Assembly: GCA_036170915.1 (NCBI GenBank)
Contig: JAVHQC010000022.1
Span: 64,001 to 128,000 of the forward strand
Reading direction: 5' to 3'
DNA: 64,000 bases
Source: Cyanobacteria bacterium auto_48_18
GTDB taxonomy: Bacteria; Cyanobacteriota; Vampirovibrionia; Obscuribacterales; Obscuribacteraceae
The number at the start of each line of letters is the position of its first letter. The first letter of the stretch is position 1. A program made the position numbers and the translations under genes. Below, piece by piece: positions 699-51,701 of the stretch. Below the pieces are notes generated by a model. It made no database searches. It saw nothing but the letters and a program-made list of their open reading frames with translations, and was not told where the DNA came from.

Positions 699-987
699 AC
701 CCAACGCTCTTATTTCACAGCTTTGACTGTGAGCTTTTCAAAGCTCACACTTCCAGTCTCGCCGTCGGCGCTCTTATCGAGCACCAGCGCCAGGTAGGCG
801 GTGCGGCCACGAACAAGTTCAAGCTTGAGGTGAGTTTTGTTTTCCTTGAGAGCAAATTGTTGGCTCACCACCTGGTGCCCTTCTGCATCTAATTGCACGC
901 ATTCTACAGCCAGTGCGATAGGTACACCCTCTTTAACCACATCACCCTCAAGCACAAAAGTATCCGGCAGTTCGTCGCTGTAAAGCA
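699..987. repeat. Direct repeat 1, distal copy (~289 bp): orphan duplicate of the 3' end of gene 1868..4120
   Basis: Aligns ungapped to 1857..2145 with about 24 mismatches by manual count. Confidence 0.95.
710..987 (-). pseudogene. Orphan C-terminal fragment (~92 codons) of the membrane protein 1868..4120
   Basis: Translation nearly identical to the last residues of 1868..4120 (...FEKLTVKAVK); no corresponding 5' part. Confidence 0.85.
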
Positions 988-1012
988 GACGAAGAGAGGT
1001 AGAAGTAATAAC

Positions 1013-1834
1013 TTACTTCAATCTGTTTGCTGCAGATGTGTCATTAAGAATGTCTATCAACGGCTTATAGCCTTCTGGCCATGAGGCCGGTTGGAAAAAC
1101 TCGAACCCTAAAAAATTCTTTGCAGCATTCCTGATTTTCTCAAATTCTTCTTCATGCTGAAGGCTATCGTCAATAAACTCAGTTAGCTGAAGCATCACTA
1201 GATCGTCATGTAACCACTTCACACTGTGAATCGGACAGTTGCTGAGTTTTTCGGTGCCGATAGCGTCAATATACTCCCGAGACAGCCAGGTACGCCAATA
1301 AAGATTTGGAATGCCGAGTTTTAGATGCTTGGTGTGGATCGAAACAGAGGGAAACTTATCATTGATTCCGCAACTAGAAACAGTGTCAATTTTGCTTTCC
1401 CTGTCGCGCTCTTTTTCCAGATTATTAGCCATATGCACATATGAAAAGTGAGCACCAATTTCAGCTGCTGCTTGGTCAGTAAACTTCAGTATTTCAGATT
1501 CTAGCCCCTCTACGTATTCTGCTGAAAATAATAAACTTGAATAGCGCCCGCTGATTGGGTAAGGTTCTTCAAGAAGACAACTAGCGTCAATCCACGGTGC
1601 TTTTGTACGCTTAAAGTGAACGATCTGCTCCCAGCACTCTTTCATTGTCTCTAGATTTTGATAAGTTAAGGGCCGTCGAATAGGCTCGGTTATATCAAAT
1701 CGATTTGGAAAATAAGTGGGAGCCAGAGCGTTCCACAATCCAAATAGTTTTTGCACATTGTGCCAGTCAATGAGTGAATTTTTCGACAATAAACCAACTG
1801 AAAAATGAGGAGTATCTGGTGGCATAATTGTCAA
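1013..1834 (-). CDS. Hypothetical protein, possibly polymorphic-toxin immunity-like; cargo between direct repeats
   Basis: 273-aa ORF with GAGG upstream; C-terminal 'GIPNLYWRTWLSREYIDAIG...VMLQLTE' is reminiscent of immunity-protein families (weak, by eye). Confidence 0.6.
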   Translation of the reverse strand: MTIMPPDTPHFSVGLLSKNSLIDWHNVQKLFGLWNALAPTYFPNRFDITEPIRRPLTYQNLETMKECWEQIVHFKRTKAPWIDASCLLEEPYPISGRYSSLLFSAEYVEGLESEILKFTDQAAAEIGAHFSYVHMANNLEKERDRESKIDTVSSCGINDKFPSVSIHTKHLKLGIPNLYWRTWLSREYIDAIGTEKLSNCPIHSVKWLHDDLVMLQLTEFIDDSLQHEEEFEKIRNAAKNFLGFEFFQPASWPEGYKPLIDILNDTSAANRLK

Positions 1835-1856
1835 CCTCGATAAGTATTAGTTGAAG

Positions 1857-2145
1857 ACCCAACGCTCTTATTTCACAGCTTTGACTGTTAGTTTTTCAAA
1901 GCTAACATTACCAGTTTCGCCGTCGGCGCTCTTATCGAGAACCAACGCCAGGTAGGCGGTGCGGCCACGAACAAGTTCAAGCTTGAGATGAGTTTTGTTT
2001 TCTTTTAGAGCAAATTGTTGGCTCACTATCTGGTGCCCTTCTGCATCTAATTGCACGCATTCTACAGCCAGCGATATAGGCACACCCTCTTTAACCACAT
2101 CACCTTCGAGAATAAAAGCATCAGGCAGCTCGTCGCTGTAAAGCA
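1857..2145. repeat. Direct repeat 1, proximal copy (functional 3' end of 1868..4120)
   Basis: Matches 699..987 at offset 1158. Confidence 0.95.
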
Positions 2146-4120
2146 AATAGCGTCTCTCCCCTTCCAAGCATTTTTCGCGTGGTGCGTCTAGTTTAAAATT
2201 GAAATGAGAACGCTTTAGGTCATAGCAAATTTCGCTCAGCGCCCCGGTGGTAATCCACGCAGGTTGGCTGCCCGGGCGATCTTTGACAAACTGGCGCATT
2301 TTTCCTAAAGTCAGCGCCGCGTCTTTCAGGCTCGTTGGTCGCACGCGCTCGTAGACCGTGGCTTTGACTTCACCGTCTAAAATTTGAGGGGCGATGTTCT
2401 TGCTCACGGCAAAGTCTTGTGCCAGCGGCCAGCCTTCTTTAAAGCAACTCAAAACCGCTGTTAAAATGTCTTGCTCTTTAGCCGGAATGAAGAATTGCGA
2501 TTTATCTGGCACCACCACATATGATGCCCCCAGTAAACGCTCGAGAGCATACGAATCTTTTGAGTCGACGCACGGCAGCTCTGCCCAGGCAATAGTGTCG
2601 CCATATTTGCCGTAAAGTTCGCGCTCGGCATTGCGTAAGACTCCATCGCTGAGAATGTTGCTAAAAGCAGCCACATAAACCAGCCCTCGCTTGTCTATTT
2701 GCTTGGCCATCTTCATGCGTGCTGGTAGGCTCGGGTCTTGATTAGCGGCAATGGCTGAGCGCATATCAGTGACCAGGCTGTGCAGCGCGCCGCGGTCAGA
2801 ATATTGCCAGGGGCCATAGTTGGCTGAGAACAACGCTCCCAGTGGCTCGCCTTCTACTTCGACAAATGAAAGCATGCCGGGCATAAACTGTTTAATGGCA
2901 AACTTCTGTGCCACCGCTGGTGGCATCAGGCTGAACGCTAGATTTACTGCTCCAAAGCTCAGCAAAGCAATTGCGGTGGCAACTCGTGTGAAGTTGATTG
3001 GTCCGCTGAGCACGGCTATTAGCCCGAATAAGCCCAGTGCCACCAGAGGCGTAAAATACAAGGTGTAGTGCGTACCCAGTTCGTTGGGTCCCATAATCCA
3101 GAAAATGCAGCCGGTGCAGTAGAGCATCAAGACAAATCTGAAATTGTCTCTTTGCCACAAATTGGCTCGCCAGGCCAATATAATTCCTGACAGAGAAGCG
3201 AGCCAGATCACAATGCCATAAGAAGATGTGAAATACGAGAGGGCGTGTAAAAGCGATACGTGATACGACTCGTAGAGGGCATGATAGTTGTGCCGGGTGA
3301 CATTAACCAAAAATGAAAAGCCCAGCGCAATGATGGTAACTGCACCGGCCATGCCGATTTGCAGTAAAGGAATAAATTTTGCTTTGAGACCCTTCACAGA
3401 TTTTACTGTCAGCCATTGATCCACCACGAGAGCTAACACAAAGGCAATGGCTTCATAGGCAAAATAGCGACGCAGAAGCACTGCCAGGGCGAGGAAAAAT
3501 CCAAGATAATAGTTGTATTTTTCAGAAGAAAGGTCGCGATTTTTGAAATATAAATGTATGCACCACAAGAGCGTCAAAGCCGCACTATAGTCTGGATAAC
3601 CTCGCAGAAGCGGTGCCCATAACGGGGGCAGGGCGAGGCAGGCGAAAGTGAAAATGAAAAACAACCACTTTTTCGATGATACTGCCGGTTGGAACATGCG
3701 CACGCCGAGGCTGGCGAGCAATGCCACAAAGGGAATAAAATAAGCTAGGGTGACGCTTTCGATAAAACCGGTGCGATTGTCACCCAGCACCACCATTAGT
3801 GGCGCCAGAGGAGCGGTGAAGAATAAGTTGTGCGTGAGCGTGGCTGAGCTCACCAGTAAAAGTGGATAAGTTATGGGGCTATCGAGCATGGCATTAAGCG
3901 AAATGCGTGTGGCCCATTCGTAATAATTGAAGTCAGACCAGTAGTAAGGCGCTTCATAAGCAACATAGGTGCGTACTATCCATAGAGCTAGTGCCATTGC
4001 CGACAAAACGGTTATTAGACAGTGAAAGTTTGAGCGGCGCGCGGAAGAACCTGTTGGCACCGGCACAGGCGCAGCAGGCTTTGATGATTGGTCTAAATTT
4101 GGCGGCTGGTCAGCTGTCAT
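1868..4120 (-). CDS. Multi-pass membrane protein, probable GT-C fold glycosyltransferase
   Basis: 750 aa; many N-terminal TM helices, acidic motif (YWSD) after TM1, soluble C-terminal domain. Confidence 0.6.
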   Translation of the reverse strand: MTADQPPNLDQSSKPAAPVPVPTGSSARRSNFHCLITVLSAMALALWIVRTYVAYEAPYYWSDFNYYEWATRISLNAMLDSPITYPLLLVSSATLTHNLFFTAPLAPLMVVLGDNRTGFIESVTLAYFIPFVALLASLGVRMFQPAVSSKKWLFFIFTFACLALPPLWAPLLRGYPDYSAALTLLWCIHLYFKNRDLSSEKYNYYLGFFLALAVLLRRYFAYEAIAFVLALVVDQWLTVKSVKGLKAKFIPLLQIGMAGAVTIIALGFSFLVNVTRHNYHALYESYHVSLLHALSYFTSSYGIVIWLASLSGIILAWRANLWQRDNFRFVLMLYCTGCIFWIMGPNELGTHYTLYFTPLVALGLFGLIAVLSGPINFTRVATAIALLSFGAVNLAFSLMPPAVAQKFAIKQFMPGMLSFVEVEGEPLGALFSANYGPWQYSDRGALHSLVTDMRSAIAANQDPSLPARMKMAKQIDKRGLVYVAAFSNILSDGVLRNAERELYGKYGDTIAWAELPCVDSKDSYALERLLGASYVVVPDKSQFFIPAKEQDILTAVLSCFKEGWPLAQDFAVSKNIAPQILDGEVKATVYERVRPTSLKDAALTLGKMRQFVKDRPGSQPAWITTGALSEICYDLKRSHFNFKLDAPREKCLEGERRYLLYSDELPDAFILEGDVVKEGVPISLAVECVQLDAEGHQIVSQQFALKENKTHLKLELVRGRTAYLALVLDKSADGETGNVSFEKLTVKAVK

Positions 4121-4199
4121 GATTTGTGGGTTGAAAAGCTCAATTACACTGAGGTCAAGACAATGCTAGCATGGTGATGATGTTCAACTAAGAGGTCTT

Positions 4200-5504: not shown

Positions 5505-5647
5505 GACTTTTCGGCGTGCGGCCAAGCCGGCGGACAAAAAATGCTTCATTAATGTAGCAATCTGGCTCTAGACCCATTAAGATATTTTAGCAATTGCCGT
5601 GCCTGGCAGTTTTGCGCTCCACCAGTGAGAAAGGAAGTCGTTAGCGG

Positions 5648-7234: not shown

Positions 7235-8001
7235 TTTTTCGTGGCCAAACCATCAGTCGATTTAGCAACCGAAAATTCGATGATGCGATAAGGCGGCTGG
7301 TCAGGAATTTTTGCCTTGAGAAGAGGCATAGCAACGTTGTACACCGGTGTGCCTGATATCAATGTACCTTCCAGTGTGCCTTTGTGCACATGACCATGAA
7401 AGACGGCGTTGACAGGGTTACGCAACAGTGGTTCTTCTAATCGGCTGTTACCTAAAAATGGATAAATTTCAACAGGTTCACCAATTACGGTGCCAAGTAT
7501 TGGTGAGTAGTGCAAAACAGCAACGCGGTAGGTAGTGCGCAAGCGTGCCAGGGCCGAATCAAGCTTGAGTGCTTCGCTCATAGCTTCATTGACTATACTT
7601 TTGATGCCGGCTTCGCCCCATGCTCCTAGTGAATGACGGCCGAAGCCACCGATATATCCTTTAATTCCGGCAAAACCTACGCCTAAAATTTCTACGGTGT
7701 CGCCGTCTAAAATGGTGATACCGCCGGCGCTTAGAATTTTGCTCACTTCCTCGGCTTGGCCGGTTTCAAAATCATGATTGCCTAAGACTCCCACCATTGG
7801 AATTTTTACGGAGCTCAGTTCTTTGAGGAGAATATGCGCTTCTTCAGGAGTGCCATAGTCGGTGAGATCTCCGCATAAAATCAGGATGTCAGCCTGGTCG
7901 TTGACGTTGGCAAAAAATGGTGCTATCAGCCCAAGGGCGTTTTTGCCACAGTGAATGTCGCCTACCGCTGCTATTCGCACATTATCTTTTTCCATAATCA
8001 C
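7231..8001 (-). CDS. Calcineurin-like metallophosphoesterase
   Basis: DIH, GDLT, GNHD, H, GHVH motifs. Confidence 0.9.
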
Positions 8002-9424: not shown

Positions 9425-9439
9425 GGAATTAATATCAGG

Positions 9440-36499: not shown

Positions 36500-37459
36500 A
36501 TGAACCCATTACGAAGTTTGTTTCTACAGTTATCTCGAATGCCTCCAGCGTTAATGTTGGTGCTCATTATCGGTTTGGCTGTGCTTATTACCATGATGGT
36601 TACAAGCAACCAGACTGCTCAAGAGCAAGCTCTGAAGGCAAAAGAGTCAGACCTGATCGCTAAAATGAGCGCTAAGGGTAAAGTGGTTTATGCCATTAAG
36701 GATATTCCTGAAGGCTCTACCATTCCAGTTGAAGCTCTAGAAGAAAAGGAAATCGAGCAGGCTAAAATCCCGCAAGACGCCCTTACCTCTGCTTCACTCG
36801 CTGCTGGCCGCGTTGCCAAATACGGCATCCAGACCGGACAAATCGTTTCTCAGCATGACCTTGCACCGCAGGGAATTTCGCTGGGATTCGAAGCTAGACT
36901 GAAAGAAGGCATGAGAGCTGTTACCTTCGCGGTTGACAGTAACTCTGGTGTTGCTGGTTTCGTTACCCCTGAGAGCCACGTCGATGTAATCGCCATGGTT
37001 GGATCGGCTGGTGATACTAAAGTAGCTCCAATCCTTTCTGACGTTGAAGTTATCGCAGTAGGCCAGATGTACCAGAAAGCTCCAGGCGGCACCGCTGCTG
37101 TACCAGCTAGCTCAGTCACTGTGTCACTGTCGCCTGAAGATGCTAACAAGCTGATCAGATCGATCACCGCTTCCAAGCTCTATTTGACCTTGAGAAACGA
37201 CAAAGATCACCAACCGGTTGCAACTGTTGACGTTACTTCGCTCTTCGTTAAGCCACCAGCTCCGAAGTCTGATCTTTCGTCCTTGCCACCACCATCTGCC
37301 TTACCTCCACCCCCACTGCCCGGAGCTCCTGATGCAGGTCCGATGCCTATGGGTGGCCCTGGTATGATGCCTAACGCGGCACCACCGCCTCCACCATTGC
37401 ATGAAATTGAGATCTGGTCCGGTAGTAAGAAAGACGTTCTTTCCGTTCCAAAATCGTAA
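36500..37459 (+). CDS. cpaB: Flp pilus assembly protein CpaB/RcpC
   Basis: N-terminal TM, SAF domain, GMRAVT...GVAGFV.P..HVDVI; Pro-rich tail. Confidence 0.92.
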   Translation: MNPLRSLFLQLSRMPPALMLVLIIGLAVLITMMVTSNQTAQEQALKAKESDLIAKMSAKGKVVYAIKDIPEGSTIPVEALEEKEIEQAKIPQDALTSASLAAGRVAKYGIQTGQIVSQHDLAPQGISLGFEARLKEGMRAVTFAVDSNSGVAGFVTPESHVDVIAMVGSAGDTKVAPILSDVEVIAVGQMYQKAPGGTAAVPASSVTVSLSPEDANKLIRSITASKLYLTLRNDKDHQPVATVDVTSLFVKPPAPKSDLSSLPPPSALPPPPLPGAPDAGPMPMGGPGMMPNAAPPPPPLHEIEIWSGSKKDVLSVPKS

Positions 37460-37570
37460 TTTCGTCGTATTGATGGAATATACATAAAACGTACAAAGTA
37501 CATATGGATAAAGCTAAGCTATTGGGTAAAACCTAGTTAGGGCTGTCGGCAAAGGGAGAAAGCTGAAGCT

Positions 37571-38755
37571 ATGAAACTGACCACACTGCTCGTATGTGAT
37601 GCAGGTTTGGACAAACGCCAAACCATTGAAGATCTGATTCACAGTCAACCATCGTTGGCTCTGGTCAGCACCGTCTCTGGAAGTATGGCGCGCGAACAAA
37701 TCGGCAGCTTACACCCAAAATTGGTGTGGATTGAGCTCAGTCCAGCCCCTGTGCGCGGACTTTCGTTGTTGGCAGAGTTGCGGGAAACTTTCCCGCAACT
37801 CTACTTCTTCGTTAGCTATGAAGTTCCAGACCCTGAGTTGATCCGCACTGCGTATCGACTCGGGGCTTCTGACTTCCTTGATGCAGAACGCTGGCGTACT
37901 GACCTTCCAGCCGCCGTTCAATCAATTCAGTTGAAGCATCAATCTGAATCTGTCTCTACTGCTGCCGGCAAAGTTATCGGCATCTTTAGCCCCACTGGTG
38001 GTATCGGTGCCACCACCATCTGTACGAACCTGGCTGGTTATCTCGGTAAGTATGGCGAAACTTGCATCGTCGACCTCGACTTGCAATTCGGTATGGTTTC
38101 GCATTACCTCAACCTTGAGCCTTCGTTCAGTTTGAGCACCATCGACTTTTCACACACAAACTTCGACGCTACTTATCTGCGCAACCTGATGACACGGTAC
38201 GACGATAAGTTGAGCATCCTCGCAGCACCACCGGAACTTGAAGATATCGGTGACATCTATGCTGCGCAGGTGCAGGAAATTCTCTATACCTCGAAACAGG
38301 AATTCCGTTTCACAGTTGTAGACCTGCCCAAAAACTTGCTCGATGAACGCGCTATCGCGACTCTCGACTTGGCCGACCATGTACTTGTTATCACTGAGTA
38401 CAACTGGGCAGCTATTTTGAATGCTCGCAAGTGCCTCGATACGTTCAAGGCCCACTACAACCAGGAGAAACTCCTGCTCACAGTCAACAGATCAGAATGG
38501 TTGCCCCAAGACGTTCTTAGCGAATGTCGTGCCAACTTGAACTATCCTGTTTTCCATGAGATCCCTAACGATACTAAGACTGCTAAGTGGGTTAACAACC
38601 AGGGTCAGATCGCCCCTGCGCATACTCCACTAGGTAAAGCACTCGACTCACTGGCCAGACGACTGGCTGGTGGTGAGCAACTTCTGTTGACTCAGAAAAA
38701 CGATGGCGAAAAAGCAGGATTCAAACTACCGGCGATCTTCGGCAAGAAAAAATAA
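37571..38755 (+). CDS. cpaE: Pilus assembly ParA/MinD-like ATPase CpaE/TadZ with receiver-like N-domain
   Basis: Deviant Walker A SPTGGIGATT, VDLDLQFG; tad context. Confidence 0.88.
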   Translation: MKLTTLLVCDAGLDKRQTIEDLIHSQPSLALVSTVSGSMAREQIGSLHPKLVWIELSPAPVRGLSLLAELRETFPQLYFFVSYEVPDPELIRTAYRLGASDFLDAERWRTDLPAAVQSIQLKHQSESVSTAAGKVIGIFSPTGGIGATTICTNLAGYLGKYGETCIVDLDLQFGMVSHYLNLEPSFSLSTIDFSHTNFDATYLRNLMTRYDDKLSILAAPPELEDIGDIYAAQVQEILYTSKQEFRFTVVDLPKNLLDERAIATLDLADHVLVITEYNWAAILNARKCLDTFKAHYNQEKLLLTVNRSEWLPQDVLSECRANLNYPVFHEIPNDTKTAKWVNNQGQIAPAHTPLGKALDSLARRLAGGEQLLLTQKNDGEKAGFKLPAIFGKKK

Positions 38756-38772
38756 ATAAGGTGGGCTTCTAA

Positions 38773-40419
38773 ATGGGTGACGAAAGAAAGGATCAAAATC
38801 TACCGGCACGACCCACATCTTCACTAATGGGACAGTTAGTCCGGCAGCGGCAGGCGTCAGAAGTGGTGCCTGCTCAGCAGCAGAATACCGGTCTTCAAGG
38901 TGGAGCTCAGGGCACAGGTGTTGGAGCCAGACCAGGTTCCGGACCAGCTCCAGGGCAAAGCGGCATGGCCAGACCTGCTGGTGCAGCACCTAATACTGGT
39001 ATGTCTCAAGCGCGTCCGGGTGGTGGTGGAGTTCCTGCTACCGAAGGTCCGACACGCGGCGACATCGACAGAATCGACGCTAAAGACGAATACGGCAGTG
39101 GTGGTCATGGTGGCGGCGGCGGTGACGCAGGCCCTACCGATATTGGTGGTAAATTCTCCGCCAACCAGCAACTAATCCGCGAACGCGAAAAGTTCATCAT
39201 TGAACAACTGCGTAGAGAATTAGACACGTCTCGCTTGACGAATATTTCAGAAGATACACAAGCTCAAGTTAGAGCTCGTATCAGAGAAATCGTAAACTCA
39301 GACCCAGCTCCATTGACCATGATGGAGAAGGGTATTTTGCTGCAGAACGTCTTGGATGAAGTGTTTGGTTTCGGCCCACTTGGTCCTCTGCTTCGCGACC
39401 CAAGCGTAGGCGACATCTGCGTCAACGGTATTGGTTCAATTTACGTAGAGCGTCACGGTCGTCTTGAAAAAACAGCAGTTGTTTTTGAAAACGACAGGCA
39501 CTTAAGACAGACCATCGACAAAATCATTCAGCCTCTGGGCAGAAGACTTGATGAAAACTCACCCATGGTTGACGCCCGTCTGCCAAACGGCTCACGGGTA
39601 AACGCCACCATTCCACCGGTGTCGATTGACGGTCCTACGATCACCATTCGATGTTTCGGTACGTCCATTATGTCCCTCGGCCAATTGTGCGAGAAGGGCT
39701 CAATGAGCGTGCAGATGGCTGAAGTTCTGAAGGCCTGCGTTAAGGGCCGGATTAACTTGATCATCTCAGGTGGTACAGGTTCAGGAAAAACCACACTGCT
39801 AAACGCACTGTCTGCGCACATCAACCCTCGCGAACGCATCATCACCATTGAGGACGCGGCGGAATTACGCTTACAGCACGAGCACTGGGTACGTATGGAA
39901 ACCCGTCCGCCAAACACAGAAGGACGCGGTCAAATCACACAACGGATGTTAGTTATTAACTGCCTCCGTATGCGACCTGACCGAATCATTCTAGGAGAAT
40001 GTCGGGGAGAAGAAGCGTTCGACATGTTGCAGGCCATGAACACAGGTCACAGCGGCTCCATGACTACGATTCACTCCAACAATCCTCGGGACTGCACTAA
40101 GCGTCTAGAAAACATGATTCTGATGTGCGGTATGGAAATGCCTCAGAAAGCTGCTCGCGAACTGATCGCATCAGCCATTCAAGTTATCGTGCAAATCAGC
40201 CGTCTTGAAGACGGTACCAGGCGCGTGACTGAAATCGCTGAGATAACCGGAATGGAAGGCGACACCATCGCCATTTCAAGCATGTTCACACTAGAACGTG
40301 AAGGCCGCGACGCCAGAGGCTTCTTCAAATGCCGTCACATGGGATCTGGACTACCACCCAAATTCCTGGAACAGCTGGAGCAAGAAGCGGTTCCCTTCAA
40401 GCTCGAGTGGCTTAGATAA
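38773..40419 (+). CDS. tadA: Tad secretion ATPase CpaF/TadA
   Basis: [36 protein letters not shown]. Confidence 0.95.
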
Positions 40420-40499
40420 ACCAAGATACGCAAGGACTGCTCTCATTGAAAAATGTGGGCAGTCCTATTTAGCAGTTAGAAAAGCAGAGTACGGAAAAG

Positions 40500-41432
40500 A
40501 TGAACCCAATACTATTGTGCGGATCAATAATCCTCGTCGGACTTCTTCTGATGACGCTTCTTCGTCGCAACAGCGTCGATCAGCTATCACGTCTGGCCAA
40601 GCATTCACGGCGTATGGCCGAGAAGCTGCATGATAAAGCCGACCCGGAAAGCATTTTCGTCACCCAGCGGGCTGACTACCTTTCGCGCTTGTTAGCTCAA
40701 GCTGGTAAAGAAGCCGAATACGACAAGATGAAAACTTACTGGATTTGCGCTGCCATCGGCACGGGAATTTTGTTTGCCATTGGTTTTGTGTTGGGCAATA
40801 TGGCCGAACTTTCACCGGTTGGTTTCTTCGTCGGTCTCCCTGTTGGTGCTGCTGGTTTCGTCTATTACCTGGGCGAAGTGGCCAAAAAGCGTCAGGCCAG
40901 AATGACCGAACAATTGCCGCAGATTCTAGAGACTATGGTGTCTGCGCTGAGAGCCGGTTCGCCGGTTATGGAAGTTTTCAAAGTTATTTCAGACACAGGC
41001 CCCGACCCAATTCGCGGCGAGTTCAAGCGTGGTCTTATTTCGCTGCAACTCGGTAAACCATTCAGAGACGTTATGGTTGAAATGTCTTACCGAATTAAGG
41101 CTCCCGACTTTAAGCTTTTGACCCAGGCCATTTTCATCTCGCAAGACGTGGGCGGAAACCTGGCCGACGTTGTTGCCACCATTGCCGATGCCATTCGTGA
41201 AAGATTCAAACTACGCGACTTCTTGAACGCTCTGACATCACAAGGTAAAGCTACAGCGTCATTCATCGGCTGCCTGCCTTATTTAATCACTGTGGGCACT
41301 TATTTCTTGACACCAGCTTATATGACTCCCTTTTTGAACCACCCAGTTGCTAGACTGGTAATGGTAGGTCTTGTCATCTGGGAGCTGATGGGTTTCTACA
41401 TTCTGCAAAAAATGGTGACCTTCGAGGTCTAA
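40500..41432 (+). CDS. tadB: Tad inner-membrane platform protein TadB
   Basis: T2SSF-like QLP..LE..ALRAG, GGNLADV; position after tadA. Confidence 0.9.
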   Translation: MNPILLCGSIILVGLLLMTLLRRNSVDQLSRLAKHSRRMAEKLHDKADPESIFVTQRADYLSRLLAQAGKEAEYDKMKTYWICAAIGTGILFAIGFVLGNMAELSPVGFFVGLPVGAAGFVYYLGEVAKKRQARMTEQLPQILETMVSALRAGSPVMEVFKVISDTGPDPIRGEFKRGLISLQLGKPFRDVMVEMSYRIKAPDFKLLTQAIFISQDVGGNLADVVATIADAIRERFKLRDFLNALTSQGKATASFIGCLPYLITVGTYFLTPAYMTPFLNHPVARLVMVGLVIWELMGFYILQKMVTFEV

Positions 41433-41499
41433 CTTTCAGACTCAATTCCCCAACTTCCACTTCCAGTTTCATTCCACCAGTTTCAAGGACGCTTCCATC

Positions 41500-42426
41500 A
41501 TGCCAATGCCTGTTCTCGCCGTACTAGTTTTCACCTGTGTAGTGGCAAGCTGCGTACTGGTGCTCAGGCCGGTATTCGGCACTTACGTAGACAACTACGG
41601 CGTACGTATTCGCCCTCGCAAAGAAAAAGAAGACAGCGCTGCTGAGAAGCCAAAAGATTCGATTATTTTGAAACTGGCCGAGTTCGTTGGACAGTTTTCG
41701 CTTTCATTGATGCCTGCACTGGCCGACAAAAGAACAGTTCAACTGTTGAACATGGCCAATTACCGTACACCACATCACATGGCGATCTTCATCGGCGTTA
41801 AAGTGATGCTGGTTGGTACCGTTCTGGTGATGACTTTCCTTGCTGCCACCACTAACCCAATCATGTTACTGGGCGGATTGATTGGTGCCATCCCTACCTG
41901 GATTTTGCCTAACTTCTTCCTCGCCAGCCGTGTTAAACAGCGTCAAGATCAAGTTTTAAAAGAGTTGCCGATCATCATCGACTTGATGATTGTATGTGCC
42001 CAAGCCGGTCTTGGTATGATGCTCGCCATCGACAAAGTATCAAAAGAAGTGCACATGTCTTGCCCGATTTTGAGCGTCGAGTTGCAGCAACTGATTTCAG
42101 ACGTAAAAGTGTTCGCCAAATCAGTACCCCACGCACTGCGTGAGATGGGTGAAAGATGCGGCGTAGACGAATTGATCAACATGGCATCAGCCTTGATTGC
42201 AGCAGAAGCAAAAGGTGCCGACATGTCGTATCCATTGCGTCAACAAGCCTCAGCATTGAGAGACAGACTGAAGCGTAAGAAAGAAGAAGAAGCCGGTAAA
42301 GTGCCGGTCAAAATGGTTCCGGTAATCATGATCTTCGTTATGCCACTGATTCTTTGCCCCATGCTTGGACCAGCCGTTGTCACCATCTTGAACGCTGTGG
42401 GACCAATTATGGCGGGCACCAAATAA
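41500..42426 (+). CDS. tadC: Tad inner-membrane platform protein TadC
   Basis: ELP..IDLM..CAQAGL, EEEAGKVPVKM, LGPA. Confidence 0.9.
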   Translation: MPMPVLAVLVFTCVVASCVLVLRPVFGTYVDNYGVRIRPRKEKEDSAAEKPKDSIILKLAEFVGQFSLSLMPALADKRTVQLLNMANYRTPHHMAIFIGVKVMLVGTVLVMTFLAATTNPIMLLGGLIGAIPTWILPNFFLASRVKQRQDQVLKELPIIIDLMIVCAQAGLGMMLAIDKVSKEVHMSCPILSVELQQLISDVKVFAKSVPHALREMGERCGVDELINMASALIAAEAKGADMSYPLRQQASALRDRLKRKKEEEAGKVPVKMVPVIMIFVMPLILCPMLGPAVVTILNAVGPIMAGTK

Positions 42427-45210: not shown

Positions 45211-45260
45211 TAACTAACCGCTATAGACTCTTTTACCAGAAAACACCGCTGTTATCACTC

Positions 45261-45896
45261 TTAAGTGGCTGGCATTTGTGCAGCCTTAAAGTCTTTGCGA
45301 TATCGGTTCTGGAAGACAATGATGAATATATTGGAGAGCCAATAGGGCATCCAGGCGCAAGAATTTATAATCAGCTGACAATCTTCTTTCTTTAAAACCG
45401 CAAGAGCTCTAATGATCGCCTCTCTGGTGATTTTCTTTTTGCCTAGCTGCCACAGTGATCTAACTACGGTGCCAGCTCGATCATCTTTGAGTTGCATCTT
45501 TTTATGACAGGCCGTGCGCAAATTGATGGTTTGGTGTCTCTCTATTACTCGGAACTTGCTTGTTGCACCGTTGACAATAAAAGTGGGCTCTGCAGTCTTT
45601 TCGATTTTGAGCCCCATGTCCGCAGCAGCATTAGCGCCGTGCTGGAGGATTCTTTTGCCAAACGACTTGGCTTTTAAGGTGGCAATTTCTAAATCAGAAT
45701 AATGAGGTCTCCTTGTCAGTGCGCAAACAAACATGCCCCGCACAATACGCACCAACAAGCCTTCTTTGACCAGTCTAGCTAGTGCCTGATCAACGTTGTA
45801 TCTTAGGCCTACGCCAAGGCAATCTCTTGTCGTAAAAAGGGTTCCGGGTGGGAGAGATCGATAGTATCGAACTATCTTAGCGCGGCAGCTGTCCAT
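45261..45896 (-). CDS. DUF6088 / AbiEi-like (type IV TA antitoxin-like) wHTH protein
   Basis: GTLFT..D, VDQALARLVKEGLLVRIVRGMF, GANAA..GL; AGGAGG SD. Confidence 0.8.
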   Translation of the reverse strand: MDSCRAKIVRYYRSLPPGTLFTTRDCLGVGLRYNVDQALARLVKEGLLVRIVRGMFVCALTRRPHYSDLEIATLKAKSFGKRILQHGANAAADMGLKIEKTAEPTFIVNGATSKFRVIERHQTINLRTACHKKMQLKDDRAGTVVRSLWQLGKKKITREAIIRALAVLKKEDCQLIINSCAWMPYWLSNIFIIVFQNRYRKDFKAAQMPAT

Positions 45897-46197
45897 AACG
45901 AACCTCCTTCAATCGGTGGATTAAGGTAGTGGTTCTTTGTAATACGTTTTTTTGCGGGGGGAAGTTCAATTCGCGTGCAAAAAAGTTCATTGGATCGTTG
46001 CGGCCGATGGGGGCAAGGGTTGGTGTTCTGTTGTTTTTGAGAAAATTCTGTAGGGGGACTTTCGGCCGAAAATCTGACAATTTTTGCCCAGTTAATTTTG
46101 TAAGAAAAATGGCCGAAGATCCCAGCGTATCGATTACTCAAATCAAAGCCAGGCCAGCACCCGCAGCCCCAAGCCAATAGTGAACCAAACCCCCTCG

Positions 46198-46947
46198 CTA
46201 TTCCGAAGAGCGCTTGGCTGAGACCCCTTGCAACCGTTTTCGCATAGCAAACATGTTGCCGAGAAATTCAAAAATTGTAGACATGCGCACGTTTGATTGG
46301 CCGCCCGCACGTTGCTTAAAAACAACTGGTACTTCTTCAATAGAAAAGCCAAGCTTTCTCGCTGCCAACATCATTTCAGCGTCAATGAACCAATCATTGC
46401 TGGTTAGCCCAAGTTGCCGCAAAGCCTTGCGTCTTAGTATCTTTGGCTTGCCGTTTATGTCATTGCAAATTGAGCCAAAGAACATTTTAAAAAGAAAGTT
46501 GTATCCCGTAGTTATTATCAAACGTTTGAAACCGTCTTCTCTTTTTACTCTGACAACTTTGACGATCTCAGCGTTTGAAATTTTTGCGGCGTTAAAAACT
46601 TTAACTACGTCTTCTGCCGAGATTTGTTCGTCTCCATCAATGTAACCAACAAGTTCGCCCCGTGCGGCCTCTAGCCCTGCTCGAATGCCGGCGCCATAAC
46701 CATGATTTTCAGCCAGGCTGACCAGCACAAGCTCGTGGTTGATAGCCGCTAGCGCTTGCGCCAACACGGGAGTTTGATCCAGGCAGCCATTGAGCACAAC
46801 TACCAATTCAAAAGCGTCCCCCGGAAAACTGCTTCGAAAGCGGCTCAGCAAGTTGGTAATCATGTTTTCTACATTGTCTTGCTCGTTGTAGCAAGTTGTG
46901 ACAATGGAGAATTTTAGTTCAAGACTTTCCAGCTTTTCACTGGGCAT
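46198..46947 (-). CDS. GT2 glycosyltransferase (DPM1-like)
   Basis: CYNEQ, NHGYG, DGD, FIDAEM. Confidence 0.88.
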   Translation of the reverse strand: MPSEKLESLELKFSIVTTCYNEQDNVENMITNLLSRFRSSFPGDAFELVVVLNGCLDQTPVLAQALAAINHELVLVSLAENHGYGAGIRAGLEAARGELVGYIDGDEQISAEDVVKVFNAAKISNAEIVKVVRVKREDGFKRLIITTGYNFLFKMFFGSICNDINGKPKILRRKALRQLGLTSNDWFIDAEMMLAARKLGFSIEEVPVVFKQRAGGQSNVRMSTIFEFLGNMFAMRKRLQGVSAKRSSE

Positions 46948-48598
46948 TTTTGTTCTCTATGGCTGGTTCTGGAGCAAAAGAATATTCGCTCACCTCATAT
47001 GAACTTGCCCGGCCGGAGTACAACTTTGTCACTCCAATCTTGTGTAGTTTTTGCTGTAAGAATATTTCAAACTTATCAGTCACTTCCCGAGTAGGCATTT
47101 TGATTGAACTCGGCTTGTAAGTGTCCCGTATGAACACGATTTTTTCAAAACCCTGTTCTTTGTATTTGGCTAGCTTGCCCTCATAGACGGTCAAAATATT
47201 AGGATCGTGCCACCATGCGGCACGGTTTGCGTGGCGGGGTGGCAGAAGACCTGAATAAGGATCCGCGAAACCAAGTAATTCGGGCATCTCAGCCTGAGCG
47301 CATTCATGCTTCAAGTAGTAAACAAGAATAATGCCTACAAAGTCTGGAGCGGTTATAAATGCTGATTTGCCAAATTTGCCGCTGCTGATATCGCGAGCCA
47401 GAAGCCGCAATCCAGAACAATCTTGTCCGGCGCGGGCTATTGTTTCTAGCGCGCTCATGGACGCCATGGCCACAAGCGAGGCAATCAGGCAGCCTTTAAG
47501 TACTTTTTGTTTTGACTGGTTCAACTCACTTTCAAAATGTGGCCGCAATAAAGTTACGGCAAAGAGTGCCAGCAACACCCAACACGTGCAGGCTACCGGT
47601 GTCATATAGCGCACATAACCAAATATGTAAGGCGTGATAAAGCCAAATAATGAACACGATGCCGCCAGGCAGGCTGCTAATGTAACGATGCGTCCGTCGC
47701 TAACAATATGCTTTACTGACTGCCATATCTGTTTTGGTCTGAGCACCACCGCCAGGGCCAGCACAGTCGGAAAGACTAGGCTGACAAGCAAATAACCAGC
47801 TACCACAGGTAGTGGCAATGTGGCGCTTAAATTGCTGGCAAATACTGTGAGAAATTGGCTGATGGGCGTCACGTCAGCCCAGGGTGTGCCAACGCCGCGG
47901 TGATGATTGAGCACCGGCCACCAGAATAGCAACGGAATTACGGGAGCAGCCAGTGCCGGAATGGCATAAAGTGATTTGTTGTTTGACTGCTGACGGTAAA
48001 TGATAGACGCCAGGCCCATAATGCCAATGTACAAAACAGAGATATAGTGCGTCATCACCAGTAATGAACAACTGAGGGCCAACATTAATCCAGCGGGCAC
48101 GCTCGCTTTGCCATTCAAAAAACGCATGAATAGCGCCAGAGCAGACGCAGTGAGAAATCCGGCCACGGCATAGGTGCGTGCTTCATGGCTGTAAATGATG
48201 GCTAAAATTGAGATTGTGGCGAAGAAGGCAGACAGTAATCCAGTGGCGCTTTTGCCGCAGTTATCAGAGCCGGCCGCTTCCTTGCCTAGCAAATAGACAA
48301 CAGGAATGGTGAGCACACTAAAAATCAAAGAGGGCAGTGCCATCACAACTGAGTTAAAGCCCAGAAACATTGTGAACAATTTCAAAATGGAAAAATAAAC
48401 CGGCGGGCTCATTTCCACTTCTTTAATGCGGGTGACAAGATCGCCAAAATTTGAGGCTTCGACTACATAAGCGCTACAGGCGTCGTCAATGGTAACGCCG
48501 ATATTAAGAAGGGGAGCCCGCAGTGCGACGGCCAGACCCATCATTAATGCAACAACGAGCCAGTCTCTTTTATTATTGTTTTGGTCGGCAACGTTCAT
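46937..48598 (-). CDS. GT39/ArnT-like GT-C membrane glycosyltransferase
   Basis: DD after TM1, PPVYF, YSHEARTYA, THY. Confidence 0.82.
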   Translation of the reverse strand: MNVADQNNNKRDWLVVALMMGLAVALRAPLLNIGVTIDDACSAYVVEASNFGDLVTRIKEVEMSPPVYFSILKLFTMFLGFNSVVMALPSLIFSVLTIPVVYLLGKEAAGSDNCGKSATGLLSAFFATISILAIIYSHEARTYAVAGFLTASALALFMRFLNGKASVPAGLMLALSCSLLVMTHYISVLYIGIMGLASIIYRQQSNNKSLYAIPALAAPVIPLLFWWPVLNHHRGVGTPWADVTPISQFLTVFASNLSATLPLPVVAGYLLVSLVFPTVLALAVVLRPKQIWQSVKHIVSDGRIVTLAACLAASCSLFGFITPYIFGYVRYMTPVACTCWVLLALFAVTLLRPHFESELNQSKQKVLKGCLIASLVAMASMSALETIARAGQDCSGLRLLARDISSGKFGKSAFITAPDFVGIILVYYLKHECAQAEMPELLGFADPYSGLLPPRHANRAAWWHDPNILTVYEGKLAKYKEQGFEKIVFIRDTYKPSSIKMPTREVTDKFEIFLQQKLHKIGVTKLYSGRASSYEVSEYSFAPEPAIENKNAQ

Positions 48599-48663
48599 CT
48601 ACAGAGCTATAGTGCCCTACTCGGGCGAGATTAACACAGTGACTAGCAGGTCTATTTATATAA

Positions 48664-50211
48664 ATGCCAAAGCAGTTGATTCCAAATCCTAATTTTGCAG
48701 GTGCGCCCGAAGGATGGACTCTGGTGGATGCAAGCAAAATCTCAATCGGCCAAGGCAACTGTATCGAACTGAGCGGCCGTCGTGAAGGAGAAGAGCCATC
48801 GGGCGTAATAATGACGCTAGAAAATGTGCCAACTGAGCACGTGCTGAATTTTTCCTGTAGCCTTCGTCGCGCTGAGATTGCCGACATTACATCGATAACG
48901 ATAACCGCTTACGATGCGGAAAAAGCTTTTGTTAGAAGATGGCAAAGCTGCTGGTTCACAGTCACAGAGAAGTGGACTACATATGAGGCGATATTTGTAG
49001 CACCTTCAAAAACTCATACTTTGGAAATTGCTATTCACAATTTTAGTGAAACTCCTGCACTGGTTAGAAAAGTCCATCTAGTAGTGCGAAATCCCATTGT
49101 CAGGAATTTTGCAGACGGCAACGCAACCACTGTGCTGGAAGTAAATTATTTGTCTGCAGTATGTGCCAGGCCTGGTGAAACACATGGTAGCGTGACCTTT
49201 CCCATTCCCGGGCTTTATAGAGAACAAATACCTCTGTCTTTCGAAATTTCGTCGAATCCAAAGTCAGCGCTCAAGAGCTATAAGATCTATCCGCGCGAAG
49301 ATGGTATCAATTGGCTTTGCCAGGCTGATTTGACAGTGGGCCAGTCAGTAACAATCAATTGGAAAGCACTAGTTTTAGTGTCAGGCAGAAAAAACATCTC
49401 GCTGCGAAAAACGAGTGCACCACCGGCTAGAAAGGTGACCCAATGGTTGAGAAGCACTGTCTGTGTACAATGTGACGATGCCGCTATTAAGAAAAAGGCG
49501 AAGGCACTGGTTAACGGAATGGATGACGTCGAGACGAAAGTGCGAAAAATATTGGAATTTGTTGCCACCCAGTCTGGCGACGGTAGCGCGTATGAGTCAT
49601 TGGATGCAAAAACCGCTTTACGTGCAGGAGGTTCCTGTACAAGCCGTGCTAATCTGACTGCCGCTTTGCTTCGCGCCTGCGGCATTGCCGCGCGAACAAT
49701 CGCCCACATACCAGTTAGTAGCTACTGGTTTGACATGCACTGGCTAACCGAATATTGGCATCCAGGCCATGGTTGGGTATGGCTCGAAACTTCGTGGAAC
49801 GAATTCGAACCAGCGCCAAATCAATTAATCGTCGTAGCTGTAGCTACTGCCGATGACGAAGACAAAAGTTTAGACCCCGTATATCTGCGTACAATCATGC
49901 CAGGAGCTGCATATCTTTCCACTTGCCTGGTGTCACCTGAACTAACTCTCGGTTACGGCTTTCGGCAAAATTTTTCTATGATGCTAGGGGCGTTAAGTGG
50001 TACTGATCGCCAAATGGAGCAATTGAATTTGCAGGCTAAGCGCGCTTTTATCCAAATGACAAAATCCAACTTAGCGACCGCAAATGCTACGAGGCGGACA
50101 GAAGAAATAATGGAAGCTGCTCGAAGTGGTAAGGCATCGTTGCTGTCCGCAGCATTGATAAAGAGAAACCGCTCTGTGCGCCCTGCAACATTAGTGTCAA
50201 AACCCAATTAG
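48664..50211 (+). CDS. Transglutaminase-like domain protein with N-terminal galactose-binding-like module
   Basis: GSCTSRANL.AALLRACGIAAR, HWLTEYW...GWVWLE triad region; N-terminal NPNF..W beta-sandwich-like start. Confidence 0.8.
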   Translation: MPKQLIPNPNFAGAPEGWTLVDASKISIGQGNCIELSGRREGEEPSGVIMTLENVPTEHVLNFSCSLRRAEIADITSITITAYDAEKAFVRRWQSCWFTVTEKWTTYEAIFVAPSKTHTLEIAIHNFSETPALVRKVHLVVRNPIVRNFADGNATTVLEVNYLSAVCARPGETHGSVTFPIPGLYREQIPLSFEISSNPKSALKSYKIYPREDGINWLCQADLTVGQSVTINWKALVLVSGRKNISLRKTSAPPARKVTQWLRSTVCVQCDDAAIKKKAKALVNGMDDVETKVRKILEFVATQSGDGSAYESLDAKTALRAGGSCTSRANLTAALLRACGIAARTIAHIPVSSYWFDMHWLTEYWHPGHGWVWLETSWNEFEPAPNQLIVVAVATADDEDKSLDPVYLRTIMPGAAYLSTCLVSPELTLGYGFRQNFSMMLGALSGTDRQMEQLNLQAKRAFIQMTKSNLATANATRRTEEIMEAARSGKASLLSAALIKRNRSVRPATLVSKPN

Positions 50212-50221
50212 CCAGCATATT

Positions 50222-50561
50222 AAGTCGCAGTTAATTGCCACGGTGCTAGATCTCTTACCCTTCAGACAGCATCGTCCAGTATCCTTGCTAAGACTGCTTC
50301 GCCTGATAGTCTTTTAGCCTCGGCGATTTCGCTTGCGATTAGCGCACTGATTTCCAACAAAATTTGAGCGTAATCTTCTGGACTATCCAGGTATGCATTT
50401 ACAAAAAAGTTCGCGCCGTTTCCGTTTTCGACAGACCATACACGAATGAACTCATCTGCTTGAGTGGCTCCATCAAATGGCGGCGGCTTAAGCATCGTCG
50501 TAATCTCCCACCATTTTTTTTGATATTATCGAGAATCAATTTTTGACCAGCCGCTGCACTT
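50222..50561. repeat. Direct repeat 2, distal copy (~340 bp)
   Basis: Aligns to 51361..51701 with about 10 substitutions and one 2-nt deletion (manual). Confidence 0.95.
50262..50495 (-). pseudogene. Duplicate of DUF5076-like gene 51394..51636 with a C-terminal 2-nt frameshift
   Basis: Identical protein until ...ARILD, then DAV* instead of TMLSEG*. Confidence 0.75.
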
Positions 50562-50595
50562 TTACCGGATCCATGAGTTCTATCGCCCCTTAGTC

Positions 50596-51288
50596 TCAAC
50601 GCCTTCTTTGATGAAAAAAACAACGCATTGCCAGCTGAATGCGCAGGCGATCACAACCAAAGTCCACACAGGTTTCGGGCCCGCATTCGGGGCCTAGCAT
50701 CTCCCACATTCGAGCCCTGCCGGCGCGCTCTTTTTCTCGTTCTGTTCGCTCAACATTTTGCAGAGTTTCCTCCGAATAAAAAGACTCTATCAGCTCTTTC
50801 TTTTTCGCTGTAAAAAACATGCCGTGTGTATATGAAGCAAAACAATAAGGTTCCACCTCTTCAATAAACTTCCAGAAATCGGAATTGTCAGGATCTGCGT
50901 CCACACCAGCGAGACTCAGTCTTCCGGCAATCTCGCTTTTGCTTAGCGGCTCGTCGATCAGCATCAGTTCTATATCGGCCCCATAATTTATTACAGGTTT
51001 TTCTGTGATCACATCGGAAAGGGCACAGTGTTCAGCCACCACCTGCCAGCCAGGTTTTGAACCGAAACAGGCGGCAGCCCCTCCAAACCAGTCAAAGTAA
51101 GTCATGAGAATCCGAAAGGGAGTTTGAGGAAGCTCAATGCAATCGAGAAAATCCCACGTGTAATATGGAGTTATCCAATAAAAATCACCGTGCTGCCCTT
51201 GCTTATAATTGCATCGAAATGTCCAATCTTTTAGATTGAGCCAATCGTCCACCTCTGGAATTGGCAGGTATTTATTGGGATCATGCAT
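50596..51288 (-). CDS. Hypothetical protein with C-terminal Cys/His (CxxxxC...CxxH) motif; cargo between direct repeats
   Basis: 230-aa ORF ending GPECGPETCVDFGCDRLRIQLAMRCFFH. Confidence 0.7.
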   Translation of the reverse strand: MHDPNKYLPIPEVDDWLNLKDWTFRCNYKQGQHGDFYWITPYYTWDFLDCIELPQTPFRILMTYFDWFGGAAACFGSKPGWQVVAEHCALSDVITEKPVINYGADIELMLIDEPLSKSEIAGRLSLAGVDADPDNSDFWKFIEEVEPYCFASYTHGMFFTAKKKELIESFYSEETLQNVERTEREKERAGRARMWEMLGPECGPETCVDFGCDRLRIQLAMRCFFHQRRR

Positions 51289-51360
51289 ATTGGTTTAATC
51301 GGGCCTTTTACTAGACTCGCGCTTCAACAACAGTGCCAAAATCAAACTAGTCATCTTCTC

Positions 51361-51701
51361 AAGTCGCAGTCAATTGCCGCGGTGCTAGATCTCTTACCCT
51401 TCAGACAGCATCGTGTCCAGTATCCTTGCTAAGACTGCTTCGCCTGATAGTCTCTTAGCCTCTGCGATTTCGCTCGCGATTAGCGCACTGATTTCCAACA
51501 AAATTTGAGCGTAATCTTCTGGACTATCCAGGTATGCATTTACAAAAAAGTTCGCGCCGTTTCCGTTTTCGACAGACCATACACGAATGAACTCATCTGC
51601 TTGAGTGGCTCCATCAAATGGCGGAGGCTTAAGCATCGTCGAAATCTCCCACCATGGTTTTGATATTATCGAGAATCAATTTTTGACCAGCCTCTGCACT
51701 T
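51361..51701. repeat. Direct repeat 2, proximal copy
   Basis: Matches 50222..50561 at offset ~1140. Confidence 0.95.
51394..51636 (-). CDS. DUF5076-like small protein
   Basis: PP..A.EFIRVW...DSPEDYAQILLEIS..IA pattern, paralogous to the upstream gene. Confidence 0.6.
   Translation of the reverse strand: MLKPPPFDGATQADEFIRVWSVENGNGANFFVNAYLDSPEDYAQILLEISALIASEIAEAKRLSGEAVLARILDTMLSEG

What the first reader, a model, noticed from the sequence alone, without database searches (positions are those of the whole stretch)
699..51701. Recurring 'operon-tail replacement cassette' architecture: two independent ~1.15-kb cargo insertions with long gene-end duplications and no recombinase
Seen in sequence: two unrelated loci (699-2145 and 50222-51701) share one layout. 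Read on the minus strand: last gene of an operon with a short 3' UTR, then one co-oriented orphan gene, then a second 5'-truncated copy of the same gene end and UTR, then the stop of a convergent plus-strand gene. Repeat lengths are ~289 and ~340 bp and repeat periods are 1158 and ~1140 bp. The two repeats share no sequence, and I see no integrase, transposase or terminal inverted repeats. Inference: a generic mechanism adds single genes at transcript ends and places them under the host operon's transcription, e.g. single-crossover integration of small ~1.15-kb circles or homology-facilitated recombination with DNA from relatives. It resembles the orphan-fragment pattern of Rhs/Cdi C-terminal displacement but acts on non-toxin genes. 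The similar period could be coincidence with n=2.
Basis: partly seen in the sequence, partly recalled or inferred. Interest (0 to 1): 0.8.

Follow-up and report, generated by a model that had tools for sequence, protein, structure and literature searches.

The report
Gene-end scars flanking captured accessory genes
In this uncultured bacterium and a close relative, single extra genes sit behind a working gene and are followed by a spare, slightly different copy of that gene's end, a scar likely left when the cell's ordinary recombination machinery pulls in a broken piece of a relative's DNA rather than the mark of a new mobile element.

Summary
Both repeats are real (292 nt, 91%, period 1158; ~340 nt core, period 1139-1141), and cargo depth equals flank depth in the one run holding this DNA. 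At locus 1 the copies differ at 19 synonymous and 6 non-synonymous sites (dN/dS 0.08), nearly as far apart as two species, so they are alleles from two lineages. Congeners have empty sites (both at locus 1, one at locus 2). Screens found more cases: four in this genome, three in 29% of a relative. Periods run 582-1716 nt, and ordinary gene indels have a median of 1065 nt, so 1.15 kb is simply one-gene size. One case shows a reciprocal crossover; another ends 17-20 codons into the next donor gene at a short microhomology. Best reading: one homologous crossover in a gene end plus one illegitimate join, by host recombination. It is rare (1 of 35 clean indels) and not strictly operon-tail. It resembles published 'insertion with long target duplication' and Rhs tip displacement, without their cargo. 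This scan has noted the pattern in at least 36 other genomes. Cargo 1 has a T6SS-immunity-like predicted fold.

The parts
50..697 (+). 3' part of an AAA ATPase gene (522 aa; starts before the window at G000:C22:63129); convergent neighbour, itself accessory
   Evidence: Pfam AAA; missing at this site in G006 and G009
696..987 (-). Distal orphan copy of the last 92 codons, stop and ~12 nt of 3' UTR of the host gene; frame intact, no start
1013..1825 (-). Cargo 1, 270 aa, 41.8% GC; predicted fold of the TsiV/TsiT (Imm52)-like T6SS immunity proteins; no toxin gene beside it
1854..2145 (-). Proximal copy: working 3' end of the host gene plus the same short UTR
1868..4120 (-). Host gene of locus 1, 750-aa hydrophobic protein with no Pfam hit; 93% and 82% identical orthologues in G006 and G009
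46940..48598 (-). PMT_2-like glycosyltransferase gene; in G009 it directly follows the long gene 51892-54489, which marks the ancestral empty site
48664..50211 (+). Transglutaminase-like gene, convergent neighbour of locus 2; accessory (missing in G009, only a 141-aa 5' piece in G006)
50178..50214 (-). Decayed remnant of the 3' end of gene 51892-54489, overlapping the transglutaminase-like gene's end
   Evidence: (family D4)
50222..50561 (-). Distal copy of locus 2: tail of DUF5076 gene 1 plus nearly whole DUF5076 gene 2 and UTR, two frameshifts
50596..51288 (-). Cargo 2, 230 aa, no Pfam family, Cys-rich conserved C-terminus; relatives in 28 of 104 genomes of the family, the closest ones at other loci
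51317..51353 (-). Second decayed remnant of the 3' end of gene 51892-54489 (period 582)
51361..51701 (-). Proximal copy of locus 2
51394..51895 (-). Pair of DUF5076 genes (51629-51895, 51394-51636); itself an older cargo, not found in any of 14 congeners searched
51892..54489 (-). 865-aa membrane protein with a weak spermidine-synthase-like domain hit (E 0.13, below cut-off); conserved host gene of locus 2

Best explanation
These are insertion scars likely made by the host's own recombination: a broken piece of chromosome from a related lineage, carrying that lineage's copy of a gene's 3' end and whatever followed it, would enter by one homologous crossover in the gene end and one illegitimate, microhomology-type join. 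The gene stays whole with an exchanged end, the cargo follows it, and a spare gene end is left behind the cargo. Shown: the two copies at locus 1 are alleles that both evolved under protein-level selection; relatives have the single-copy empty state; the layout recurs at unrelated genes with no shared site sequence and variable repeat length (28-~340 nt). Inferred: RecA and natural competence as the agents; the order of the two joins (a non-replicating circle closed first and then a single crossover, or both joins in the recipient); the preference for 3' ends and convergent junctions as a result of selection (the gene survives and nothing downstream is cut off); and cargo transcription by read-through.
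For: Locus 1 copies: 19 synonymous and 6 non-synonymous differences in 92 codons, dS 0.37, dN/dS 0.078, P=5e-8 against neutral drift; each copy is at dS 0.41-0.52 from G006. Locus 2: 4 synonymous, 0 non-synonymous in the first 73 codons compared. Empty sites: G006 and G009 at locus 1, G009 at locus 2. G000:C1 case: G006 has one 86-nt copy where G000 has two around an 184-aa cargo; G006 sides with the proximal copy at 10 of the first 11 informative sites and with the distal copy at 14 of the last 15, permutation P=0.001, as a single crossover predicts. G006 case L215 (280 nt, 87%, period 1144): the cargo is an AbiEi antitoxin and the insert stops 17-20 codons into the partner gene, which is 286 aa behind the closest homologue (G094, L230), joining the spare gene end at a 6-7-nt shared word. 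Further cases: G000 C15 (241 nt, 97%, period 1716, Fic cargo) and C22:431116 (69 nt, period 697); G006 L132 (28 nt, 1247; G000 empty) and L210 (97 nt, 100%, 944). G000 has recA and a comEC-family gene; its four tyrosine recombinases over the Pfam cut-off lie on other contigs than these loci. Gene indels between G000 and G006 favour convergent junctions: 19 of 35 against 743 of 4012 neighbour pairs, P=2e-6.
Against: No crossover point could be placed at the window's locus 1 (permutation P=0.19), nor at C15 (0.87) or C22:431116 (0.52; both copies about equally far from G006, 55/70 and 57/70); locus 2 has no outgroup for the DUF5076 genes. The illegitimate join was shown at one locus only, in another genome; the donors of the two window cargos were not found. 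The 3'-downstream polarity is modest: 6 against 1 at score 42 or more with period over 300 (P=0.06), and orphan gene-start repeats also occur. L210 is 100% identical, which a plain duplication of the recipient's own target explains as well. The closest relative is a different species (90% identity), so resident and donor alleles are judged indirectly.
Confidence: 0.65

Rival explanations
1. The insertion duplicated the recipient's own target (identical copies at birth, as in double-strand-break repair models of 'long target duplication'); later allele exchange with relatives replaced the working copy, so the copies now look like alleles of two lineages.
For: L210 copies are identical over 97 nt; the first ~150 nt of the C15 copies are nearly identical; the last ~35 nt of the locus-1 copies are identical; published cases include identical copies (PMC2853133 Table 3).
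Against: It needs two events per locus. The reciprocal switch at C1 is what one crossover gives. The locus-1 orphan has an intact frame and mostly synonymous private changes, so the window for a second event is short.
Confidence: 0.14
2. Each cargo is the relic of an integrase-driven island or prophage that used the gene's 3' end as attachment site and supplied a replacement end (as e14 does at icd), and then lost its integrase.
For: The layout, and the mainly synonymous differences, match icd/e14/icdC (PMC13626634 passages). G000 has four tyrosine recombinases.
Against: No integrase or phage remnant in any insert examined; at locus 1 only 25 nt lie between cargo stop and orphan copy, and the orphan is undecayed, which leaves little time for a clean loss. 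Nine unrelated target genes in two genomes, with repeat lengths 28-~340 nt and no shared sequence. The L215 insert ends inside an ordinary donor gene.
Confidence: 0.1
3. A dedicated, size-limited cassette system (about 1.15-kb circles made or handled by an unknown enzyme or particle) adds single genes at transcript ends.
For: Six of ten periods fall within 944-1247 nt.
Against: Periods of 582, 697 and 1716 occur; the 35 ordinary clean indels have a median of 1065 nt and 34 lack a flanking repeat; no common end motif or inverted repeat; one insert cuts a partner gene.
Confidence: 0.07
4. The duplications are assembly chimeras of two co-occurring strains.
For: G000 is a 39-contig, 86%-complete assembly; only contigs of one run (possibly the source) could be laid, and none spans a whole locus.
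Against: In run X1 the cargo contigs have depth 13.5 and 13.7 against 12.5-13.6 in the flanks, and shared repeat pieces 20-28. Frameshifts and decayed older remnants are not strain alleles. The same layout occurs in a separately assembled genome, G006.
Confidence: 0.04

Closest known systems
Insertion with long target duplication (Furuta, Abe and Kobayashi 2010, PMC2853133: passages and sections 13, 15, 18 read; Nobusato et al. 2000 seen only as cited there)
   Same: Small insert between direct repeats of tens to hundreds of bases (their Table 3: 25-423 nt, 86-100% alike), no mobile-element gene, empty-site genome, repeats often spanning a start or stop codon so that the gene stays intact, mostly in naturally competent species.
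   Different: Their cargo is restriction-modification genes and they suggest DNA breakage by these enzymes; here no cargo examined is an RM gene, and the locus-1 copies are shown to be selected alleles of two lineages.
C-terminal displacement in rhs genes (Jackson et al. 2009, PMC2935791: passages read)
   Same: Intact gene followed by displaced ends of variable length; proposed circle plus single homologous crossover with no integrase; nested events.
   Different: Hosts here are ordinary enzymes and membrane proteins; the incoming end is homologous, not a new toxin tip, so the host protein barely changes and the gain is the trailing cargo.
Homology-facilitated illegitimate recombination (described in PMC6382021: passages read; the primary paper PMC122324 was not held)
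   Same: One homologous anchor plus a join at a few matching bases; RecA-dependent; seen in competent bacteria.
   Different: A laboratory process; from my recall it usually deletes recipient DNA and is not described as leaving gene-end duplications at scale. The C1 mosaic fits a circle better than a linear event.
Prophage e14 at icd with the icdC fragment (PMC13626634: passages read)
   Same: Working gene with an exchanged 3' end, spare C-terminal fragment at the far side, mainly synonymous differences.
   Different: e14 is a 15-kb prophage excised by site-specific recombination; the inserts here are 0.5-1.5 kb with no recombinase.
HGT hotspots without mobile elements (Oliveira et al. 2017, PMC5635113: passages read)
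   Same: Accessory genes accumulate between conserved genes with no integrase; homologous recombination in the flanking genes is invoked.
   Different: Their model is a double crossover in both flanking core genes, which leaves no duplication and needs a donor that already has the insert there; the scars here need only one conserved gene end.

Membership tests
Insertion with long target duplication (Furuta 2010 criteria) | Duplication longer than 30 nt | tested here: met
   292 and ~340 nt
Insertion with long target duplication (Furuta 2010 criteria) | Insert under 20 kb with no mobile-element gene | tested here: met
   Unique spacers of 866 and ~800 nt, one ORF each, no integrase or transposase Pfam hit
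Insertion with long target duplication (Furuta 2010 criteria) | Empty-site genome with one copy | tested here: met
   Locus 1: G006 and G009 (these also lack the AAA gene); locus 2: G009 lacks the whole 3.25-kb block; clean single-insert empty site at C1
Insertion with long target duplication (Furuta 2010 criteria) | Restriction and modification genes in the insert | tested here: not met
   Cargo 1 immunity-like fold, cargo 2 no family, others Fic, AbiEi antitoxin or unknown
Insertion with long target duplication (Furuta 2010 criteria) | Both copies derive from the recipient's target | tested here: inconclusive
   Locus 1 copies are diverged selected alleles, but later allele exchange is not excluded; L210 is identical
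Rhs C-terminal displacement | Host is an Rhs/polymorphic-toxin core gene with non-homologous exchangeable tips | tested here: not met
   No Rhs family among window ORFs; both ends are homologous
Rhs C-terminal displacement | Displaced ends of variable length downstream of an intact gene, nested | tested here: met
Rhs C-terminal displacement | Circular intermediate, single crossover | tested here: inconclusive
   Reciprocal mosaic at C1 (P=0.001); not seen at locus 1, C15 or C22:431116; circles not observable with contigs
Integrase-driven island at a protein-coding 3' end (e14/icd type) | Integrase within or beside the element | tested here: not met
   None in the window; genome's tyrosine recombinases are on C16, C18, C30, C35, with a broken piece at the end of C29; serine recombinases were not searched genome-wide
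Integrase-driven island at a protein-coding 3' end (e14/icd type) | Target gene restored by a synonymous-diverged end, fragment displaced | tested here: met
Homology-facilitated illegitimate recombination | Illegitimate join at a short microhomology | tested here: inconclusive
   Seen at G006 L215; donors of the two window cargos unknown
Homology-facilitated illegitimate recombination | RecA dependence and DNA uptake | not testable with these tools
   recA and a comEC-family gene are present; dependence needs an experiment
TsiV/TsiT (Imm52)-like immunity protein (cargo 1) | Fold | tested here: met
   AlphaFold model pLDDT 93; top matches PA0821 (Z 13.9, rmsd 3.5, 220 aligned), PA3907-PA3908 complex chain (Z 13.4), BPSL2088 (Z 12.1); next row Z 6.9
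TsiV/TsiT (Imm52)-like immunity protein (cargo 1) | Pfam TsiV sequence match | tested here: inconclusive
   Cargo 1 itself has no hit; 3 of 74 aligned relatives hit PF11876 weakly, best E 0.0014
TsiV/TsiT (Imm52)-like immunity protein (cargo 1) | Neutralises a cognate nuclease effector | not testable with these tools
   No effector gene lies beside it

The most novel reading that the evidence does not exclude
Bacteria share a general, recombinase-free cassette economy: once a cargo gene is bracketed by two copies of a conserved gene end, host recombination can loop it out as a small non-replicating circle that re-enters the same gene end in other species regardless of downstream gene order. 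This would seed integrase-free hotspots and spread orphan immunity and antitoxin genes, generalising the Rhs displacement model to any gene.
Probability: 0.25. Interest if true: 0.7.

Novelty: new variant of a known kind. Interest (0 to 1): 0.42.

Why it matters
Many gene-acquisition hotspots have no integrase, and the double-crossover model does not say how the first foreign gene gets to a site. These scars keep both the donor's and the recipient's gene end and one raw junction, so donor, crossover and break point can be read from genomes. That makes the first-entry step testable. The modest score reflects that the layout is published for RM and Rhs cargo, that only a small share of gene gains show it, and that no new machinery was found.

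Tried and rejected
Fixed ~1.15-kb unit: rejected. Two-strain chimera: made unlikely by contig depth; X2 and X3 did not hold the loci. Expression: no RNA holder listed. Crossover mapping gave no significant switch at locus 1, C15 or C22:431116; my notebook entry 2 called the C22:431116 orphan the resident end, which one search does not bear out. Donor of cargo 1: a genome-contig scan found no relative, the word-index search only itself; profile-level relatives are at most 40% identical over full length. The metagenome scan with the host gene gave 3 loci, one (L087) with the same alignment blocks as G009 and not counted as independent. Cargo 2: no Pfam hit, no usable Atlas hit, no clear fold match (best Z 5.2 on a pLDDT-71 model); none of 19 other cargo-2-family loci and none of 17 other DUF5076 loci showed a repeat bracketing the gene within the ~3.2-3.7 kb held. 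The Atlas hint for cargo 1 had a recognition value under its threshold and is weak alone. Promoter and terminator scans were at chance level. Weak screen hits not counted as cases: C22:152202 (51 nt, 73%), C22:157946, C22:159521, C33:240565, C36:109314, G006 L198; C8 and C33 short-period tandem repeats dropped; 18 tandem paralogues dropped. C10 and C30 repeats cover gene starts, whole small genes or non-coding DNA and were not analysed further. Paper searches for a general account of integrase-free gene-end duplications with non-RM cargo returned none that describes it; the library lacks most subscription journals, and I did not open Furuta's supplementary figures, which may show comparable cases.
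Full report
Observation. The window is G000:C22:64001-128000, in a 4.94-Mb, 39-contig, 86%-complete genome of 47.9% GC. Both repeats exist: 696-987 / 1854-2145 (292 nt, 91%, spacing 1158) and 50222-50561 / 51361-51701 (spacing 1139-1141; 385 nt at 93% by BLAST). Each brackets one minus-strand ORF. None of 52 main window ORFs hits an integrase or transposase family in Pfam.

Artefact test. One public run (X1, possibly the source) holds the DNA. Its contigs give depth 13.5 and 13.7 over the cargos, 12.5-13.6 over the flanks and 20-28 over pieces shared by the two copies. That fits one population with both copies. These are contigs, none spans a locus, and the run may not be independent.

What the copies are. 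At locus 1 the last 92 codons differ at 19 synonymous and 6 non-synonymous sites (dS 0.37, dN/dS 0.078, P=5e-8 against neutrality), with no indel; each copy is at dS 0.41-0.52 from the orthologue in the congener G006. A target duplication left to decay would not look like this. Both ends were working gene ends in separate lineages until recently. At locus 2 the first 73 codons compared differ at 4 synonymous sites only.

Empty sites. In G006 and G009 the locus-1 host gene meets its convergent TPR-like neighbour across about 10 nt; AAA ATPase, orphan end and cargo 1 are all missing. In G009 the long gene 51892-54489 is followed directly by the PMT-like gene 46940-48598, so window 48639-51893 is accessory. 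The DUF5076 pair was found in 0 of 14 congeners and 17 of 103 other family genomes. It is itself followed by a decayed copy of the long gene's last ~40 nt, in both repeat copies. Both loci are thus small accretion sites with more than one event.

How general. I aligned the last 60 nt of 3984 simply called genes of 100 aa or more to 5 kb downstream, with upstream, antisense and gene-start controls. Of 30 downstream hits at score 38 or more, 18 were tandem paralogues, 1 lay in a longer related gene and 11 were orphans; the upstream control gave 19, 1 and 2. At score 42 or more with period over 300 the count is 6 against 1 (P=0.06), so the polarity is modest, and some gene-start repeats exist too. 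Cases I accept in G000: locus 1 (1158), locus 2 (1139-1141; gene too short for the screen), the nested one (582), C1:25287 (970), C15:4597 (1716) and C22:431116 (697; cargo antisense). The same screen on 965 genes in 1.36 Mb of G006 (100 stretches, about 29% of it) gave three: L132 (1247), L210 (944), L215 (1144).

Denominator. In the 1.06 Mb aligned between G006 and G000 (90.1% identity) there were 35 clean indels of 300 nt or more, median 1065 nt; 19 lie between convergent genes against 743 of 4012 neighbour pairs (P=2e-6); 1 of 35 and 0 of 29 substitutions had a repeat at the junctions. That junction test looked only at the longer side of substitutions and missed L215, so it undercounts nested cases. 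Two conclusions hold: about 1.15 kb is the size of one gene, and the scar marks a minority of gene gains.

Mechanism. Two cases outside the window carry the key signals. At C1, G006 has a single 86-nt target; it sides with the proximal copy at 10 of the first 11 informative sites and with the distal copy at 14 of the last 15, the switch falling at a 12-nt identical core (permutation P=0.001). That is the reciprocal mosaic of one crossover. At L215 the cargo is an AbiEi antitoxin; the insert runs 17-20 codons into the partner gene, which is 286 aa behind the 84%-identical homologue in G094, and then joins the spare gene end at a 6-7-nt shared word. The insert is therefore a broken piece of donor chromosome, not a cassette with set ends. 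G000 has recA and a comEC-family gene, and its tyrosine recombinases lie on other contigs. I infer one homologous crossover plus one illegitimate join by host functions (0.65). Whether the join closes a circle first or happens in the recipient cannot be told at the window's loci: the switch test was not significant at locus 1 (P=0.19), C15 or C22:431116. Once formed, the repeats would allow loss or re-export by homologous recombination; this is inference.

Cargo. Cargo 1 (41.8% GC) has 363 hits at E 0.001 or better, itself included, a confident model (pLDDT 93) and best structural matches to T6SS immunity-type proteins (Z 12-14; next 6.9). It is likely an orphan immunity protein; function untested. 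Cargo 2 has no known family or fold; homologues in G010 and G014 sit at a different convergent junction, where G000 lacks the gene, with no bracketing repeat. Other cargos are Fic, AbiEi antitoxin or unknown.

Known kinds. The layout meets the size, repeat and empty-site criteria of 'insertion with long target duplication' but not its RM cargo (PMC2853133). It works like the circle model for rhs tip displacement but the hosts are not rhs genes (PMC2935791). It looks like icd/e14/icdC without prophage or integrase (PMC13626634). The junction fits homology-facilitated illegitimate recombination (PMC6382021), and the setting fits integrase-free hotspots (PMC5635113). Earlier notes of this scan report the pattern in at least 36 genomes; they led me to two of these papers and are not evidence.

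Verdict. Real, not an artefact on present evidence, and recurrent; a new variant of a known kind with no new machinery found. Interest 0.42.

Noticed in passing
G000:C10:188000-234000: Variable island with several local repeats (299 nt 88%, 914 nt 89%, 418 nt 94% and others), small antitoxin-like and HTH genes and IS3-like ORFs; labels are from my reading of the translations, not from a family scan.
   Followed up: no
G000:C30:125576-125931 / 126558-126912 / 130315-130420: An 85%-identical 357-nt repeat (period 982) brackets a 133-aa gene and appears largely non-coding, with a partial third copy at the contig end.
   Followed up: no
L215:9390-10336 (G006:C86): The insert keeps an AbiEi antitoxin but cuts off its partner gene; with the immunity-like cargo 1 this hints that protective halves of conflict pairs are retained preferentially (two cases only).
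   Followed up: partly
L230 (G094:C130): Two copies of the AbiEi-type antitoxin gene 23 kb apart on one contig, and a 406-nt 98% direct repeat near one of them.
   Followed up: no
window 36500-42426: Tad/Flp pilus cluster (CpaB, ATPase, two T2SSF proteins).
   Followed up: no
window 45264-45896: AbiEi-like gene (DUF6088, weak AbiEi_4) inserted in a glycosylation cluster; G006 lacks about 920 nt here.
   Followed up: partly
window 50596-51288; G000:C15:165792-166484: Cargo 2 belongs to an unnamed family with a conserved Cys-rich C-terminal motif; a more distant paralogue lies on C15, and 12 of 14 congeners have a family member.
   Followed up: partly
G000:C34:6180-51519: Long tandem array of paralogous ~2.4-kb genes at 66-82% identity.
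   Followed up: no
L094 (G009:C170): The G009 contig carries the same 3.4-kb stretch twice in inverted orientation, probably an assembly fold-back.
   Followed up: no
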